Shown: positions 9,401 to 33,560 of the stretch, piece by piece | How the letters are laid out: each line of letters starts with the position of its first letter | Numbering within the stretch: the first letter of the stretch is position 1 | DNA from: Glaucostegus cemiculus | Taxonomy: Eukaryota | Assembly: GCA_976551045.1 (NCBI GenBank) | Contig: CDPCPM010000050.1 | Coordinates: 15,562,001-15,626,000 of the forward strand | Direction of reading: 5' to 3' | DNA length: 64,000 nucleotides | Translations under genes and position numbers: made by a program | Notes under the pieces: generated by a model | The model's input: only the letters and a program-made list of their open reading frames with translations | The model's database searches: none | What the model was told of the DNA's origin: nothing

Positions 9401-9956
9401 GCACAATGAGAAATTCATTTTAGTTTATAATGCAAGTGAAGTCACATTCAAATTACTTAAAGTATAAATCTGTACAGGAAATTACAAGAATATGTTACTT
9501 TGAAGGATTTTGTGTTTTGCTCTTGATTTATTCTTAGGATGTTTTACCATTTCTAGCTGTAAATCTGTTTCTGAATAATTAGACTAATAATGTTTCAAAA
9601 TACAGAAGCACAAGGGGGTTTACAGTAGTAAACTAAAATTTAAGTATTAACTTCTGATTTGAACAATGCTGATATTAAAATGTACACTGACTGCATGAAA
9701 CTTTTGAATCTGCCTTTTTAAAACTGTATTTCTTTTAATTGTTCCCTATTTATCCTTGCCAGTGCATACCTTTTGATACCATTTTCCATTAAACATTTCT
9801 GTTTGCTTCCAAACTGTCCAATTTACCCTTTGCTTTCCTAACTGTTATAAAAGGCAGAAGGTGCTGGTGGATAAGCCTGCATGTGGCTCCCTCCTGTCGT
9901 GCTGGCATGTGATGGTGGCACTGGTGTGTTCTCTTCCTCTCCCTTTTTACTAACAG

Positions 9957-10061
9957 ACGCAGACCAAACTGGAGCATGCCCGCATTAAGGAGCTTGAACA
10001 GAGCCTGCTCTTTGAAAAGACCAAAGCTGAAAAACTCCAGAGAGAGTTAGAAGACACTAGG
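9957..10061 (+). CDS. CLIP1: CLIP1 35-aa cassette exon (the restin insert)
   Basis: ttttactaacag|ACG; [35 protein letters not shown]; AGG|gtaatg; 105 nt, phase 0/0; nearly identical to the recalled alternatively spliced 35-aa insert of mammalian CLIP-170. Confidence 0.95.
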
Positions 10062-10949
10062 GTAATGGATTTCACAGTTTCAATGAACTCCATTCAATTA
10101 TCAGCATGTACCCAAAATGGATATAAGTTGCTAACATTGACATTGTTATATCGGTTTATCCCCGCAAAAAAAAAGTTATCACTTAGCTAAGGACATTTTA
10201 AGCATCATTTATATGTATTTTAGAATGAGATTTTGCTATGTGGATCTTCAAAGAATTTTTTGCATTTCTGGGTTGTTACTTGTTGATGTATGCTTACTCC
10301 ATGTCCTACCTTAAATGAGTGAGCTAGTTGACAATCTGCTCACAAATGTTTGGTGGTGAGTAGTCAACAAATGGGAACTTCGTGGAAGATTAACATCCTT
10401 CAATTTTTCTGGCTTCTTCTCAGAAAAGTGCTTCCACGCTGCAACTCCCAAAAGACCTAGCTGAAAATAACTTTGCAGTTAAAACTGTCAATGGGTGCAG
10501 TCCCACATTCTACCACAGAGTGGTGCATTACGTCGAAGTAGCAATGTGATAAGTGTCACCTTTGTGGTTGGTTACATATAGAAAATGTTAAATGTAAATT
10601 TTAATTAACTTTAGAAAATCAAAATTTATTTTTAAAGATAAAGATAACTGTATAAGTAGACACTTAAGAACAATTTTTTTTGAAAGATGAATATCATCTC
10701 CAAAGAAAACTGGAGGAAATCTGTTTCATTGATTTGTGACCTAGTTACAACAGTTAAGGTTTCATGTCTTGCACCTACTACCTTATATTATATCGTTTTC
10801 AAAGCAGGTTGATCTGATGATGCAATTTTATTTTGACATTTGCTTTTTTAAACCTTACTAGTTTCACTGGTTTCTCCAGGCCTTGCACAAACTATTAACT
10901 ATTAAGCTGATTAATTCTCTGTAGTTTCCCACAGTTTCATTCCTCTCCT

Positions 10950-21289: not shown

Positions 21290-21890
21290 ACGCTCCTCTG
21301 CTACATTGATGATTGCATTGGTGCTGCTTCCTGCACCCGTGCTGATCTCGTCAGTTTCATCAACTATACCTCCAACTTCCATCCTGCCCTCATTTATTTG
21401 GTTAATGTCTGACACCTCTCTCCCCTTTCTGGAGACAGATTATCCACTGACATCTTCTACAACCCACTGACTCCCACAGTTACCTTGAATACACTTCCCA
21501 CCCAGTATTGTAGGGATGTTATCCCCTTCTCCCAGTTCCTCCATATCCGCCACATCTGTTCCCATGATGAGGCTTTTAATTGCAGGACGTCAAAGATGTA
21601 CTCCTTTTTTTTCAGTAAACGGGGTTTCCCTTCCACCATCATCAATGCTCACCTGTATCTCCTCCATTTTCTGTATGTCTGCCTCACTCCATTACCTCCC
21701 CCCCCCCCCCCCCCCCCCGGGCATAATGACATAACAGGGACAGGGTTCCCCTCATCCTCACCTACCACCCTCATCCAACACATCATTCTCTGCAATTTCC
21801 ACCACCTCCAACAGGATCGCACCACCAGGCACGTCTTCCCCTCTGCCCCCCACCCCCATCTCTGCTTTCCACAGGGATCGCTCTCCAAAA
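21290..21890 (+). mobile_element. Penelope-like retroelement RT fragment
   Basis: LLCYIDDCIGAASCTRADLVSFINYTSNFHPAL (YIDD catalytic motif), followed by CRDVIPFSQFLHIRHICS and QHIILCNFHHLQQD; frameshifted; C21 run at 21698-21718. Confidence 0.8.
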
Positions 21891-22320
21891 TGATGTTAAG
21901 AATGAGGGACTTCAATTACAATTATGTGAATATAATTGAGAAACTAGATTTATTCCACTTGCAACAAATGAAGTTGTAAAGAGATCCTGAAACAAATATT
22001 TAAAATCATGAAGAGTATAGACAAAGTAGACAGAGGGAAATGTTCCTATTGGTGGAGGAGTCGAGAGCTGGGGGATATAGAATGGAGGAGACTGGCAAAA
22101 GAACCAAAAGTGGTTTAACCAGTGAGTGGTTAAGGTATGTATGCACTGCAGGTGTAGTACTGGAGCATATTCAATTGTTGCTGGATAATTATCTGAAAGG
22201 AAATAACTTGCAGGGCTATGGGTAGGGTGTAATGGTGTGAGGACAAGCTGAATTGTTCTTGCAGAGATGTGGTACAGACTTGGTGGGCTATAAGCATTCT
22301 GTGATTTTTGTAAATCAACC
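21890..22320 (+). mobile_element. CR1-type LINE 3' end
   Basis: gagggacttcaattac...gagaaactagatttattccacttg...aaatcatgaagagtatagacaaagtagacagagggaaatgttccta...gcagggctatggg. Confidence 0.7.
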
Positions 22321-25058: not shown

Positions 25059-25274
25059 CAGCAGGAGGTGGAAATGCACAGCACACACGCTAAGGAAATG
25101 CAAAGCAACCATGAGAAAGTGGTTTCAGAAATAAATAGGAACAATGAAACTTTAGTGAAGGAGCTCAAGACAAATTTACAGGAAACCAAAGAAGCACTGA
25201 AGAACTCTCAAGAGAAGAGTAATCAAAGAGAAAAACGCATAGAAGAACTGAAGAAGCAAATGGAACAGGTCCAG
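25059..25274 (+). CDS. CLIP1: CLIP1 exon
   Basis: tcccacag|CAG; QQEVEMHSTHAKEMQ...IEELKKQMEQVQ; CAG|gtattc; 216 nt (72 aa, the same length as the recalled mammalian exon); tandem NAG acceptors make the start ambiguous by 3-9 nt. Confidence 0.88.
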
Positions 25275-27480: not shown

Positions 27481-28174
27481 GTGTTATATCAGGTAACTTT
27501 GCTCCAGTAAAGATTCAAAGTATAGTTTTAAATTTTAAAAAAATGATAATGTGTCTATTCTCACACTCGTGGCTTGCAAGTACATTGCAAATATATGCCA
27601 TTTTTGATTTCTACCCTTTCCCCTGATTTTAAAAACTACTTTTAAAGAGCATTCAAACTAGACATTCCTCCTTTATGGTGTAATCAATGTATTGACGGGC
27701 TAGGCATACTTCACACCTTCGTTTCCATTTTTTTAAAAAAGATAACATTTTATATTAGCTGATATTTATAAATAAGGCAATGATATCTTAGATTGTAGGA
27801 TAAACCTTAAACTGTACTATGTGCATTAAAAGTAGTAGAATTACTGCAAAGTCTGCCCTTATTCATTTGGTGAATGGAATCTTAACTATTTCAAATGACA
27901 AAACTTTGCATAATTATTAGATAATTTATGGTCCAAAGTGCTTTAAGAAGCCTTAGAAAAGTTTAGTAGATCTGCTTAGTTTTACATTAATTACAACAAT
28001 TTTGTATTCCTCCATAAATCTGCTGAAAAATCCAAACACTGCTCTGTTATGTTTTTCTTTTTTAACGTTTGAGCAGCACACTTTACCTTTTGTATTGTCT
28101 TTAATCCATGCTGTTTTCATTTGTCTGCTTGACTATGTTTTGTTTTTACCTTCTTCCCCACTTAAATTCTGAAG

Positions 28175-30460
28175 TCTTTAACCAGTGAGCTAGCAACAGC
28201 CAAATCTCAGTATGAGCAAATAGCAGAGGATGTGAGAGCTTTGAAGGGAGATAAAGAACAGATGATCCAGCAAAGCGATGCACTAAAGTCCGAGAAAGAG
28301 TCCTTATTTTATGAACTTTCAGAGCTGAAGTTGCAGTGTACTTCCCTACAGAAAGAGCAGCAAGTGTTAGAGACAAAGAATGAGAAACTCCAGTTGGAAA
28401 GAACAGCATTTTTAAAAGAGAGGCAGGATTTTGAGAGTACTCAGCTACAACTTTGTCTGGAAAAGGATGCTTTGGTCACTGAAAAGGACCACTATTTCTT
28501 GGAAGTCAAACGTTTGGAGCAGCAGCTTGATAAGTTGACAAAAGAAAATGAGGATCTCCAAGCCTCACAGTCAGATCTGAGCAAACAGTTGGATAATGTT
28601 CAGGCAAAAAGCAAAGCCTCAGAACATGAACAAGCCCAGCTGCTTCAAGAAAAGGAAGAGTTGTTATCGACCCACAGGAAAATGGTTACAGAAAGAGAGG
28701 AACTTACAAAAGAAAAAGACAAAATTACTCAAAATTTTGACAAGTTGCGTGAAGAGACAACAGTTGCTCTTGAGAAGCTGGTGAAAGAAAGAGATGAGCT
28801 GATGGTGGAAAAAGATTCTATTCTATTGAAGTGCTCAGAGCTTGAAGCTCAATGTGAATTTTTAGCAAAGGAGAAAAGTCTGTTAAGATCAGCGCATGAT
28901 GAGCTAATATCTGAAAATGAAGCTCTAAATAAGGAGAAAGACCATCTTAGTTCAAGTTTACAGAACACTATCCTTGAAAAGCAATCTTACATTATCTCAA
29001 AAGATCAATTGCAGTGTAGTCATGATCATTTGAAGAATGAGCTAGAAAAATACATGAAGGAAAATGCAGAACTTCAGGCCTCAAAATCCAGCCAATCAAA
29101 ACTCTTGGATGAGATTAAGAATAGCAGGGAGGTAACAGATTCTGAACGTGTTCAACTGCTTCAGGAGAAGGAAGAGCTAACAACATCTCAGAGACAACTT
29201 ACTGTAGAGAAGGATGAACTAGCTAAGGAAAAAATGGAGCTGACCGCAAAGTTGCAGAAATCCATTGAGGAGGCAGCCACCATCACGAAGCAGCTGAATG
29301 AAGAAAAAGAAGCTCTGAAAACGGAGAAAGATGCACTTTGGCTGAGGCAGTCACAGCTGGAAACCCATTGCGATATTTTACAAAGGGAGAAGGAGACCTT
29401 GGAATCAAAATGCAACATGCAAATTACAGAAAATGAATCTCTTTCAGCTGAGATAGTCGAATTCAAATTGAAGCAACAGGAGCTATTCTCTGAAAATGCA
29501 GCCATTGTTGCAGAAAGAGATCAGCTCCTCGTCAACAGTGAGCTTTTAAAGCAAAAGCTTGACGAATTGACCAAAGAAAATGAAGAGCTCCAGGCCTCAA
29601 AGTCAAGCTTCTGTACACTTTTGGATGAAATTCAGAATAGCAAAAATATTGTGGATGTAGAAAAGCATTCCTTGTTGCAAGAGAAGGAAAGACTAGTAGC
29701 TGAACTTCAGGACCAGTGCTCTGAAAAAGAACATCTTACTTGGCAGAAGGTGGAATTAGAGAAAAAGTATAATAAACTGAATGAACAAGTGAGAGTACTT
29801 GAAAAACAACTAATACAGGAAAGAGATGCAGCAAAAGTGGAAAGAGAGGCTCTCAATGTGGCTCATGCAGAACTTGAATGTCACTTCCAGCTATTGACAA
29901 ATGAAATGGGTGTTCTTAAAGCTAAGCACGATGAACTGCTTTCAAAAAACAACGTGCTAATAAAGGAAAAAGAGGTATTACATGCTGAACAAAGTAAGTC
30001 TGCTGGTGAGAAGGAAGACCTAGCAGCTGAGAAGAATTTGCTAGTATCCACCACTGAAGTGTTGAAGAAGGAGATTGATATATTAACCAAAGAAAAAGTA
30101 GAATTCCAGGCTTCAAAATCAAATCTTTTGAAACTCTTAGATGAACTTCAGAATAGCCAAGAGATATCTGAGCTGGATCAAGTAAAACTGCAGGAAGAGA
30201 AGGATAACTTGCTGGCAACAGTGCTAAAACTTCAAACAGAAAAAGAAGAACTGGTAAGAGAGAATAGCAAGTTGACAGAATCCCTCTGCAAGTTACAGGA
30301 AGAGGCTGCTCTTTCCGCTCAAGACAAGGGAGAAACTGAAGCCAAACTGCAGCAGCTGACGTGTGACAAGGAGGTACTGCTGAAACATGAAGAGGACCTT
30401 ACTTCCAAATTAAAAGATCTTCAGGTTCATCAGAATATTACTTTATCAGAGAAGATTGAG
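28175..30460 (+). CDS. CLIP1: CLIP1 giant (2286 nt, 762 aa) phase-0/0 coiled-coil exon with internal 172-aa repeats; probably alternative
   Basis: Long pyrimidine tract then ctgaag|TCT TTA ACC (SLTSELATAKSQYEQIAEDVRALK...), in frame with ORF 28232..30481; donor GAG|gtacca; E/K/L/Q-rich heptads; it sits between two exons that are directly joined in canonical CLIP-170. Confidence 0.85.
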
Positions 30461-32178
30461 GTACCAATTATAAGCATTTAGATTAAATTCAGAAAGTTAT
30501 GGGCACATTTGTTTACTAATGAGTGCATTAACAGGTTTGGTGTTGTATCTTTTAAAATCATTATATAACAGTATCGACTGTATATTAGAATGTATTAATT
30601 CTGGGAAGTGATTTTTGTGGCTTGTCTCTCCAATAATTGGTGTGGGAATTTTGAACAAGTAATTTCATTAATCTTAAAAAAAAGACTGTTTCTCATTTTA
30701 CATGAATTAGTTAACATTACATGCAGAAAATTTATTCAAGTGTGTGAATAGAATGGAGCTTAAAGTTTAACAGAGATAGTAAAACAGTGTTTTAATCCAA
30801 TATCCATTTAATCCTGTTTTGGTTTATCAGCAGGACTATTTTACAAGTCCCTAAATTTAACAGATGATTATCTTCAAATCTTTTTCTTATTTGATTCACA
30901 ACAGAAATCTTCATTTTCTTTTTGTTGCAATTTTGTATTTTATATATAGTTATTTCTAAAATCTTAGTACTTCAAATTTATCTACAGAGAAACCACAGTT
31001 TACTGCCAACAGCTAACGTCAACAAAAGCAGAAACAATTTGAAATGATTGGGCAGCAGTATACAAGCTGTTACATGAGTGCATGTATCGTACTCAGCCAA
31101 AGATGTGAGAAAACTCAGAGGTTTGATAGTAAACTATGATAAATTTGCTAATCATGGCTGGGATGTGAATAGTGTTATCTTAATTAGCTCAGAGATAGGA
31201 AGAAAGTAAAAGATTGCATTTACAGAGTACTAAATAAATGTCTTGGTGTTTTATTCACAAGGAACTGCTACTTTCAAAGTAGGGGCATGATATTTCTTTT
31301 ATTCTTCTGTGAGACACTTTGGAATATTTTGTTATATCTAAAATGCTTCACATCAGTAATTTGTTCAACTAGTGGAAGTTAAAGAATAGAGGAATATTAG
31401 TCCCATCTCACTTGTAACTCCTGTTCACTATCACTTCTGGTTAACGGTGAATGTACTGGAGTGAGTATAAACAGCAGGATTACAGACGGATGTGATTTCT
31501 TCTTTGTGCCTGTGGTTGGATAGTTGTGATGCTTGGCATCTCAGTTCCTAATTGATAGTTGAGCATTCGATAATACACCAGACTGGTGTCAGGACCCATG
31601 GACATATTCTCTAGCATGAGTACCTGTGGTTCTGAAGAAATCTGGTGGGTCAGGGGTTTAATCTAATCCATTAAAATTTAATAGGTAAATCTTCCAATAA
31701 AATTCTAATTATACTTCGTATTTAAGATTAGGCATGTAATTTTCTTATTTCACAAGATAAGTTGACCTGTTGGCAGTTTTTTTATGTCTACGAGAATTTC
31801 CCCAATGTTAATTATTTTAATTCAACAAAAATCAGTGGCATGTTTGGCATGAAACTGTGTCTGGCTCATTAAAAATCTAATTTAACTGTACATATTTCCT
31901 GCAGAATTTTAATGAGAACTTAACAGTAATGGCAACTAATATTCAATGAAATGTGAAAGCATAATTTCACAAAAAATCAAGTCAAAATTTCTTTAAATTT
32001 TGCATGAATTTCAACCATCTTCCACTTTTCAAAAGTAAACATATTACGTGCACAACATAAATTAACTTCACCTGTCCACATGAAAGGTGTGCTTTCATTA
32101 ATTTTAAGAATGTTCCTGTAACATGTTTCAGTGAAACTTTAAGCCATTCATTCACAGAGGATAATTTTCTATTCTTAG

Positions 32179-32316
32179 GCTTCCAGAAAAGCTGAAGAGG
32201 CTGAACAGTCATTAGAGCAAGTAATGAAGGAGAAAAATATATTGGACCAACAGAACATTGAAACTTTGGCAGAATTGGAAGAGTCCAGACTGAAGAACCA
32301 AAAACTTGAAAACGAG
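32179..32316 (+). CDS. CLIP1: CLIP1 exon
   Basis: attcttag|GCT; ASRKAEEAEQSLEQVMKEKNILDQQNIETLAELEESRLKNQKLENE; GAG|gtaaga; 138 nt. Confidence 0.9.
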
Positions 32317-32599
32317 GTAAGAACCAACTCGTTGCTTTGTTATCTGTTGGCTCCAGAAAGTTAGACAATGTACTTTATAAAGTATTGCTGTGAAGCAGTA
32401 AAAGGATTGTAAAGGCTGGATGAAAAATATAGTGGCTGACTCGTCAGTTAACTTAATGCAGGAACGCAGATATGGGTGCAGTCTATTTAGCCCATTCGGT
32501 CTGTTCTGCCATTAACTCACTTGCAACCTAACTGCATATCTTTTTGCTTTAATCTTTACATTTTTCATAACCAAAGGAGTTGTCAGTTTCAAAATTAAA

Positions 32600-33560
32600 G
32601 TTTCCACCCCCTCCTGATTCCATCCACAACACATATAGTTCATCCACAGCCTTCCCCTATCTGCTTCTGGTTCCATCTGCCATTCACCTCTCCCCTAATG
32701 GTTTCCATTATCACCTCCTTTACTTATCAGAGTACAGTACTTGGTGACCCTTTGTGTTCCGACTTATCTCCCTCCAGCAGCTCAATTTTTTTCTCTCCTT
32801 GTCTGCTTCCATCTATTATTCACCTGCCACTGTCTCCCAACTCCACACCCTGTTCCCTTTCTGGTGTAACCTGCCCATCATCTTCCACCCCTCCTCAGTC
32901 CACCAATCACCTCAGTCTCCTGTCTAATCAAAGACCCCACCACCCAGGCCATTCTCTCTCCTCTCCTCTTCCATCAGGTAGAAGATTCAAGAGCCTGAGG
33001 GCACTTATCACCAGACTTAAGGACAGCTTCTACCCCACTGTGATAAGACTATTGAAAGGTTCCCTTATATGATGAGATGGACTCTGACCTCACGATCTTC
33101 CTTGTTGTGACCTTGCACCTTATTGCACTGCACTTTCTCTGTAGCTGTGACATTTTAATCTGTACTGTCATTGTTTTTACCTGTACTTACATCAATGCAC
33201 TCTGTACTAACTCGGTGTAACTGCACTGTGTAATGAATTGACCTGTGCGATCAGTATGCTAGACAAGTTTTTCACTGTACCTCGGTACAAGTGACAATAA
33301 TAAACCAATACCAGTACCCTTCTCCATAAGATTTAGGAGCAGAATTAGGCCATTCAGCACATCAAGTCTGCTCTGCCATCAGTCGTGGCTGATTTCCTGC
33401 CTTCTCCCTGTAACACTTAACCCTTCTGTTCTTTATACTGGCCATCTCACCTCTCCATTCTGTCCTGATGCAAGGTTTTGACCTGAACCATCAACAGTTC
33501 CTTCCCTCCCATAGATGCTGCTTGAGCTCCTTCAGCAGGTTATTTGTTGCTCCAGAATTA
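32600..33560 (+). mobile_element. Penelope-like 3' region interrupted by Rex1 and CR1-tail insertions
   Basis: C/T-rich 32600-32930 resumes at about 33420 (tctttatactggccatctc...cctgatgcaaggttttgacctgaacc...cccatagatgctgcttg). Confidence 0.55.
32932..33320 (+). mobile_element. Rex1/Babar-type LINE 3' end
   Basis: PHHPGHSLSSPLPSGRRFKSLRALITRLKDSFYPTVIRLL, then a 3' UTR ending gtgacaataataaaccaataccagtacc. Confidence 0.8.

What the first reader, a model, noticed from the sequence alone, without database searches (positions are those of the whole stretch)
28337..30200. Exact 516-nt (172-aa) super-repeat inside the giant exon
The Q of the motif KEN.ELQAS.S...LLD...NS starts at 28559, 29075, 29591 and 30107, exactly 516 nt apart each time. 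LLQEKE recurs at 28646, 29162 and 29678 (EEKD at 30194). A Cys in (E/Q)L...C..L.(K/R)E recurs at 28337, 28853 and 29369. The units are strongly diverged yet show no net indel, which implies selection on unit length. 172 = 24 heptads + 4, consistent with one stutter or hendecad per unit, and the period is about 25 nm. Inference: an ancient intra-exonic tandem duplication producing a modular ruler with periodic binding or hinge sites.
Basis: seen in the sequence. Interest (0 to 1): 0.8.

Follow-up and report, generated by a model that had tools for sequence, protein, structure and literature searches.

The report
Fourfold repeat in CLIP-170 giant exon
An optional giant exon of the microtubule-linker gene CLIP1, already known from mammalian sperm precursors, turns out to be four ancient copies of a 172-residue rod segment that nearly double the protein's length, most likely as a spacer rather than as a row of repeated docking sites.

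Summary
The repeat is real: 32% identity at offset 172 against 18% in register-preserving shuffles (0 of 2000 reach it). It lies in the giant cassette exon (28175-30460, 762 codons) of CLIP1/CLIP-170 of a cartilaginous fish. The exon is in print as spermatid-specific and SAFB-repressed in mammals (PMC10901741); I found no description of its repeat. There are four units (about 28256-30319) and three 4-residue register shifts, one at each junction: scars of duplicating a non-heptad-length piece of plain coil, before sharks and tetrapods split. Six of 20 tetrapods align to the window without a gap. But CLIP1's ordinary coil resists indels at least as strongly, units of 158-171 occur, and frogs have five units. 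Surface conservation peaks in unit 2 only, and 25.5 nm does not fit the manchette lattice (24.0 nm). Best reading: a spliceable 113-nm spacer with one conserved patch, not a periodic ruler. Unexplained: in this fish the recurring motif is alike between units even at silent sites. No structure model could be made.

The parts
28175..30460 (+). Giant cassette exon of CLIP1/CLIP-170, 2286 nt, 762 codons, phase 0 at both ends; coiled coil of about 113 nm
   Evidence: AG acceptor after a pyrimidine tract and GT donor; shark short isoforms join the exon ending 25274 directly to the exon at 32179; eagle long minus short isoform = 762 aa at the same point
28175..28255 (+). Non-repeated lead-in (about 27 aa), strongly conserved between species
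   Evidence: 0% identity to +172 over the first 21 aa; orthologue identity 0.55 over the first 60 aa vs 0.41 for the exon
28256..28771 (+). Unit 1 (172 aa; borders good to about 10 codons)
28772..29287 (+). Unit 2
29288..29803 (+). Unit 3
29804..30319 (+). Unit 4
28727..28789 (+). Stutter/hendecad zone at junction 1-2 (4-residue register shift)
   Evidence: unsupervised register assignment puts the jump at 28727; column profile puts the hendecad at 28757-28789
29246..29305 (+). Stutter/hendecad zone at junction 2-3
29789..29821 (+). Stutter/hendecad zone at junction 3-4
   Evidence: jump at 29807
29051..29185 (+). Unit-2 copy of the recurring 45-aa motif ('anchor'): the one internal patch conserved from shark to tetrapods and teleosts, exposed positions included; candidate partner site
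   Evidence: orthologue identity 0.56, exposed 0.46, against 0.32-0.42 and 0.22-0.29 for the other three copies; the only anchor scored in 8 of 8 teleost proteins (a second, weak one in 1 of the 8)
28535..28669 (+). Anchor copy in unit 1
29567..29701 (+). Anchor copy in unit 3
30083..30217 (+). Anchor copy in unit 4
30320..30460 (+). Non-repeated tail (about 47 aa), continuing unit 4's register without a stutter
   Evidence: 5-14% identity at offset 172; no register jump
25059..25274 (+). Upstream constitutive CLIP1 exon
   Evidence: tblastn with shark short isoforms
32179..32316 (+). Downstream constitutive CLIP1 exon
   Evidence: tblastn with shark short isoforms

Best explanation
This is the giant optional exon of CLIP-170. 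Origin (well supported): a 516-nt stretch of an ancestral, unbroken heptad exon of about 246 codons was tandemly copied to four units before cartilaginous and bony fishes split. Because 172 is 24 heptads plus 4, each junction carries one stutter, a shift that a coiled coil absorbs as a hendecad; four units give three stutters and none at the ends. The period has stayed exact in many lineages because this protein's coil purges indels everywhere, not because 172 is a measured distance. Structure (inferred from sequence): a continuous, parallel two-stranded coil with Leu at d, Lys/Asn/Arg at a and Glu at g. Function (inferred): a splice-switchable spacer. When SAFB falls in mammalian spermatids the exon is included, the rod grows by about 113 nm (from about 135 to about 250 nm), setting the microtubule-binding CAP-Gly head further from the LIS1/dynactin-binding tail at the manchette's perinuclear ring and probably making head-to-tail autoinhibition less frequent; one conserved surface patch in unit 2 probably binds a partner.
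For: Identity as CLIP1: 70 of 70 hits carry CAP-Gly, 66 of 70 are named CLIP1; exon-by-exon match across the window. Three jumps, each +4, at unit columns 13-29, at all three penalties tried, where homology begins and ends. Units group by position: tetrapod clades 93-100; the window's unit matches its positional orthologue best in 14 of 16 comparisons, 1 tie, 1 miss; outside the anchor a 'window units together' tree is rejected (AU p 0.01). Composition a: K 27%, L 17%, N 11%; d: L 64%; g: E 46%; no Pro in the four units. Indels per substitution among tetrapods: giant exon 18 in about 3171, constitutive coil 1 (3 with two Rousettus gaps that reflect an exon skip in that model) in about 1127, non-coil linker 5-7 in about 124. 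Unit number and length vary. Literature: exon spermatid-specific and SAFB-repressed, human length 2268 nt (PMC10901741, passages and supplement rows), equal to the 756 aa that dingo, squirrel and bat proteins give with a donor 18 nt upstream; CLIP170 at the perinuclear ring (PMC13373224, passages); rod about 135 nm, folds head to tail (PMC2172020, passages); length-conserved, sequence-divergent coils as spacers (PMC5082667, passages).
Against: The function is not shown: no exon-specific loss-of-function result was found, the manchette phenotype cited is of the whole-gene knockout, and mouse N2A cells also splice the exon. Expression in the testis of a cartilaginous fish is untested. No structure model could be made, so dimer state and continuity rest on sequence pattern. 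About 2115 substitutions without one indel in the subtree of 7 gapless species (the species were picked for being gapless), and 5 of 5 indels outside passerines and galliforms are 3, 4, 7, 7 or 14 long, so register is under real selection. In the window the anchor is more alike between units than the rest (50% vs 31%, exposed 44% vs 23%), which a pure spacer does not predict.
Confidence: 0.6

Rival explanations
1. Modular ruler with equivalent binding sites every 25 nm: each anchor docks the same partner, building a lattice in the perinuclear ring or along microtubules; all four sites survive in cartilaginous fish, one in tetrapods.
For: Anchor excess between units in the window, p 0.006 after correcting for the choice of window; window anchors 1 and 3 resemble tetrapod anchor 2 as much as or more than their own orthologues in most rows; 172/172/172 in 7 of 36 long proteins, 4 of them used to train the profile; the frogs' fifth unit is a whole module.
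Against: No anchor excess in 5 of 5 tetrapods; dingo exposed positions are at background, 9.3% vs 9.3%; periods 158-171 tolerated; three tubulin dimers of the manchette lattice span 24.0 nm (80.04 A spacing, PMC13373224), which needs about 162 residues, not 172; supercoil turn per unit is -440 to -676 degrees depending on the helix parameter, so same-face display cannot be claimed.
Confidence: 0.18
2. The striking recurring motif is partly an RNA- or DNA-level feature: old gene conversion among the anchors, or a repeated splicing element every 516 nt, kept them alike.
For: Where two units share a residue, the codon is the same in 0.61 of 136 anchor cases vs 0.39 expected, but 0.39 of 239 vs 0.41 elsewhere; all 6 unit pairs show it; corrected p 0.0002 and 0.0005.
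Against: The protein tree of anchors still prefers grouping by position (delta logL 10.4; conversion topology not rejected, AU p 0.061); the six pairs are not independent; no second cartilaginous-fish DNA was available.
Confidence: 0.3
3. Periodic hinges: each unit has a flexible break that lets the long rod fold.
For: One stutter per period; long stretches with polar a positions should be marginally stable (established coiled-coil knowledge, recalled); the short isoform can fold into rings (PMC2172020).
Against: No Pro, and 0, 0, 0, 2 Gly in the four units; stutter zones and anchors have hydrophobic a and d layers; stutters sit at duplication junctions, which explains them without function.
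Confidence: 0.1
4. Self-assembly: giant rods pack side by side with a 25-nm stagger, or are disulfide-locked through core cysteines in maturing sperm.
For: Cys 4-12 per exon vs 0-4 per 850 aa of flanking coil; 2-5 per species at a positions; Cys532 (a) in all 6 gapless tetrapods.
Against: The recurring column-55 Cys is not kept: only the unit-2 copy, in the 3 mammals of the 6 tetrapods listed; every unit is net acidic (D+E 37-38, K+R 24-28), which disfavours lateral packing.
Confidence: 0.08
5. Artefact of heptad periodicity and K/E/L-rich composition.
For: Register-preserving shuffles already give 18% identity.
Against: 0 of 2000 shuffles reach the observed score in the window and in 4 of 4 gapless tetrapods tested; DNA repeat at 516.
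Confidence: 0.01

Closest known systems
CLIP1 giant cassette exon of human and mouse (Ilik et al. 2024, PMC10901741)
   Same: Same gene, same insertion point, near-identical length (2268 vs 2286 nt; the 18-nt difference matches a second donor seen in bird and mammal proteins), A-rich (38.5%), skipped in short isoforms
   Different: The paper treats it as an RNA target; 'coiled-coil' occurs 0 times in its main text. Repeat structure, age and register were not in the passages and supplement rows I saw. Tissue and SAFB control are not tested for this fish.
Length-conserved, sequence-divergent spacer coils: giantin, ROCK2, Spc110 (PMC5082667, passages); synaptonemal-complex SYP proteins (PMC8598163, passages)
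   Same: Low identity (27-36%) with strong depletion of indels
   Different: Here the spacer is optional, added by one exon, and made of four recognisable 172-residue copies
Super-repeat coils such as the myosin rod (28-residue repeat with skips) and tropomyosin (about 40-residue periods); recalled, from no call
   Same: A long period laid over heptads with regular register breaks
   Different: Those periods match a partner lattice and are fixed; here the period misses the manchette tubulin lattice, varies between lineages, and surface residues are not periodically conserved in tetrapods
Other giant cassette exons of cytoskeletal linkers: ANK2, ANK3, NIN, MPRIP, MAP4 (listed in PMC10901741)
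   Same: One long tissue-specific exon lengthens a linker protein
   Different: Whether they hold long internal repeats was not examined here

Membership tests
CLIP1/CLIP-170 | N-terminal CAP-Gly domains | tested here: met
   End of the second CAP-Gly at window 984 onward (Pfam partial match, E 0.004; 77-92% identity to CLIP1 there); the window begins inside it
CLIP1/CLIP-170 | Collinear exon-by-exon orthology through the coil | tested here: met
   18 and 17 collinear matches to two shark CLIP1 proteins, 55-100% identity
CLIP1/CLIP-170 | C-terminal zinc knuckles (separate CLIP1 from CLIP2) | not testable with these tools
   The window ends before them; orthologues carry CLIP1_ZNF (dingo), and matches continue through the CLIP1 region after the giant exon
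CLIP1 giant cassette exon | Frame-symmetric single exon over 2 kb at the known point, skipped in short isoforms | tested here: met
CLIP1 giant cassette exon | A content over 33% with purine-rich words | tested here: met
   38.5% A; weak evidence, as a constitutive coil exon has 39%
CLIP1 giant cassette exon | Spermatid inclusion, SAFB repression | not testable with these tools
   Shown for mammals only (PMC10901741)
Parallel two-stranded coiled coil | Continuous heptads with Leu at d, polar a, charged g | tested here: met
Parallel two-stranded coiled coil | Dimer structure by model or experiment | not testable with these tools
Lattice-matched molecular ruler | Invariant period and unit number across orthologues | tested here: not met
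   Periods 158-172, four or five units
Lattice-matched molecular ruler | Period equals a partner repeat | tested here: not met
   25.1-25.8 nm vs 24.0 nm for three manchette tubulin dimers; other partners untested
Lattice-matched molecular ruler | Surface motif conserved in every unit | tested here: inconclusive
   Present in the window (p 0.006), absent in 5 of 5 tetrapods; confounded by silent-site similarity

The most novel reading that the evidence does not exclude
The ancestral jawed-vertebrate giant CLIP-170 carried four equivalent docking sites at 25-nm steps, encoded by a motif that is held alike at both protein and RNA level, and served as the periodic scaffold of the still amorphous perinuclear ring (about 250 nm thick on average, the length predicted for the giant rod). 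Cartilaginous fish keep all four sites, frogs added a fifth, tetrapods kept mainly the second, and the constraint loosened in songbirds, fowl and teleosts as sperm-head shaping changed.
Probability: 0.15. Interest if true: 0.72.

Novelty: new member of a known kind. Interest (0 to 1): 0.4.

Why it matters
CLIP-170 is essential for manchette order and sperm-head shape, yet its giant isoform is almost unstudied as a protein. The anatomy found here (four modules, three junction stutters, one conserved patch at unit 2, natural variants with five units or shortened units) gives ready-made deletion and swap experiments that separate 'length' from 'site'. It is also a clean case of how a coiled coil grows: a duplication survives when its length leaves a tolerable register shift. 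It is not a new kind of system.

Tried and rejected
PDB sequence search with the unit profile: one unrelated hit, no passing stretch. ESM Atlas: generic coiled-coil look-alikes (golgin, HOOK1, Rabaptin) with low recognition, no lead. Pfam: only spurious coiled-coil matches below cut-off for the exon. Origin from CLIP1's constitutive coil: unit HMM gave no domain over 15 bits in 5 of 5 short isoforms; the anchor profile found none either. A 21-residue sub-repeat: 19.4% identity vs about 18% null, not distinguishable. Order of duplication: between-unit identities 35-40%, star-like, unresolved. Age beyond jawed vertebrates: no named lamprey, CLIP2 or invertebrate hit (8000 candidates scored each, weak evidence); the profile search of 1.84 billion representatives gave 3 hits under 1e-30, the first axolotl CLIP1, the others unnamed and left unexamined. 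A dynein-adaptor 'Spindly motif' reading of the anchor's LLDEI is a recalled resemblance, too loose a pattern in a coil, not tested. A link between relaxed constraint and manchette loss: the review passages read (PMC8812575) describe sperm shapes but do not say which groups lack a manchette; unsupported. Manchette proteomics supplements (PMC12326331, 3 files) had no Clip1 row. Akhmanova 2005 is not held; I saw it only as cited. TRF found one 29-nt array and Rfam nothing in the window. Supercoil phase per unit was inconclusive.

Full report
Observation. All coordinates check out, with the LLQEKE positions being those of its Q. In the 771-codon frame 28166-30481, offset 172 is the best protein self-offset (32.6% identity), followed by 344 and 516, and 516 nt the best DNA offset. 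Shuffling within heptad-position classes gives 17.8 +/- 1.3%; 0 of 2000 shuffles reach the observed score for all positions, for core, for e/g and for exposed positions. Four 91-nt copies lie 516 apart. Homology starts near exon residue 22-28 and ends near 712-718, that is four whole units, about 28256-30319.

Gene and exon. All 70 hits of the exon carry CAP-Gly and 66 of 70 are named CLIP1. A constitutive exon is 70-77% identical to five sharks and at most 56% to other vertebrates listed, so the window is from a cartilaginous fish (inference). The exon is 28175-30460, 762 codons, phase 0/0; two shark short isoforms skip it, and eagle long and short isoforms differ by exactly 762 residues at this point. 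Dingo, squirrel and bat proteins, and one eagle isoform, end the exon 6 codons earlier, giving 2268 nt, the length listed for the human CLIP1 giant exon (PMC10901741, Supplementary Table 1 row). That paper (passages of main text; peer-review file passages) reports the exon as spermatid-specific, SAFB-repressed and detectable in N2A cells. One of its supplementary files was pictures only and could not be read.

Register. Folding five gapless species into 172 columns shows Leu every seventh residue (d), Lys/Asn/Arg at a and Glu at g, a pattern I recall as favouring parallel dimers. An unsupervised register assignment finds exactly three jumps, each an insertion of 4, at 28727, 29246 and 29807, at all three penalties tried. 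They lie where units join, about 100 residues before the QAS motif, which is itself in unbroken register. There is no jump before unit 1 or after unit 4. So the stutters are what duplicating 172 codons of a plain 246-codon heptad exon must leave (inference).

Age. Tetrapod units form clades by position (support 93-100); the window's units join their positional clade with support 99 (unit 3), 59 (unit 2), 42 (unit 4), unresolved (unit 1), and match their positional orthologue best in 14 of 16 comparisons. Outside the anchor a tree with the window's units together is rejected (AU p 0.01). The array therefore predates the shark-tetrapod split (over 400 million years, recalled). Nothing named outside jawed vertebrates was found; unnamed hits stayed unexamined, so an older origin is open.

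Length constraint. I took one protein for each of 36 species (redundant songbirds dropped) and aligned the 20 tetrapods with clear exon borders (frogs, bichir, teleosts and two songbirds left out). Six of 20 have no gap against the window, over paths of about 1.6-1.7 substitutions per site. The other 14 carry 18 distinct indels: 6 multiples of 7, 4 of length 3 or 4, 8 others; all 8 others, and 13 of the 18, are in songbirds and fowl, a quarter of the tree (binomial p 3e-5, lineages chosen after the fact). The control matters: four constitutive coil exons show 1 indel in about 1127 substitutions (3 with two gaps from an exon skip in one bat model), the giant exon 18 in about 3171, the non-coil linker between the CAP-Gly domains 5-7 in about 124 (18 of the 20 species). 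The giant exon is constrained like a coil, and not more than the rest of this coil. Periods of 172/172/172 occur in 7 of 36 proteins (4 of them trained the profile), 171/170/172 in chicken, 162 in songbirds, 165 in one bat. Five of 5 frog proteins have five units, one about 158 long; bichir has four plus a partial fifth; 7 teleost proteins show two to four.

Sites. Between species, conservation is not periodic: it peaks in the first 60 residues and in the unit-2 anchor (0.56, exposed 0.46, vs 0.32-0.42 and 0.22-0.29 for the other anchors). Between units, no 45-column window stands out in 5 of 5 tetrapods (p 0.74-0.90), but it does in the window (0.51, p 0.006). That excess extends to silent sites: same codon in 0.61 vs 0.39 expected, against 0.39 vs 0.41 elsewhere (corrected p 0.0002-0.0005), while the anchor protein tree still prefers grouping by position (AU p 0.061 for the alternative). 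Old conversion, an RNA element or periodic protein sites could each contribute; I could not separate them. The recurring Cys is at an a position but is not kept across species. At 25.1-25.8 nm the unit does not match three manchette tubulin dimers, 24.0 nm (lattice 80.04 A, PMC13373224, passages).

Mechanism. Shown: gene, exon, four units, three junction stutters, age, indel depletion, variation, single conserved patch. From papers: spermatid inclusion and SAFB control in mammals; CLIP170 at the perinuclear ring; ring thickness 100-600 nm, mean about 250 (PMC12326331, passages); rod about 135 nm with head-to-tail folding (PMC2172020, passages); whole-gene knockout disorders the manchette (PMC12123824, passages). 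Inferred: an unbroken parallel dimer adding about 113 nm, acting as a switchable spacer between the microtubule-binding head and the LIS1/dynactin-binding tail, with a partner site in unit 2. The match of about 250 nm to the ring's mean thickness is suggestive only, given its range. No structure could be predicted.

Novelty. The exon is known. A search for CLIP1 with 172, internal repeat, coiled coil and exon duplication (4 of 5 terms) found 0 papers; one for Clip1, giant, cassette exon, testis and isoform found only PMC10901741; searches listed nothing on the repeat by title or abstract start. The library lacks most subscription journals, bioRxiv supplements were closed, and Akhmanova 2005 was not held, so an earlier mention cannot be excluded. 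Other papers: PMC5082667, PMC8598163, PMC8812575 and PMC11081514 were read as passages only. Verdict: a real, apparently undescribed internal architecture of a known giant exon; ordinary in kind, useful for experiments; interest 0.4.

Noticed in passing
window 28535-28669, 29051-29185, 29567-29701, 30083-30217: Excess of identical codons between the four anchor copies, absent from the rest of the units; conversion or RNA-level constraint, unexplained.
   Followed up: partly
orthologues P0022, P0029, P0039-P0065: 13 of 18 indels in the exon, and all 8 that break the register, fall in songbirds and fowl; relaxed constraint, cause unknown.
   Followed up: partly
orthologues P0034, P0035, P0037, P0042, P0343, P0033: Frogs have five units, bichir four plus a partial fifth; which unit was copied was not worked out.
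   Followed up: partly
window 30442-30443: Birds and mammals can end the exon 18 nt earlier; the window has no GT at that place.
   Followed up: yes
window 28175-28354: The first 60 residues of the exon are as conserved as the unit-2 anchor (0.55); a second candidate site, or a constraint of the splice junction.
   Followed up: no
window 9954-10091: Small exon matched by dingo, eagle, bichir and sawshark proteins but absent from the axolotl and catshark isoforms used: another cassette exon.
   Followed up: no
window 984-63763: The whole window is the CLIP1 gene from the end of the second CAP-Gly domain to just before the zinc knuckles; 18 constitutive or small exons mapped besides the giant one.
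   Followed up: yes
window 21413-21979 and 32599-33072: Intronic open frames that look like decayed retroelement pieces (recalled resemblance only; no Pfam match).
   Followed up: partly
P0034, P0035, P0042: Three frog models of about 3100 aa also carry PF00995, probably gene models fused with a neighbouring gene; one is named 'lava lamp'.
   Followed up: no
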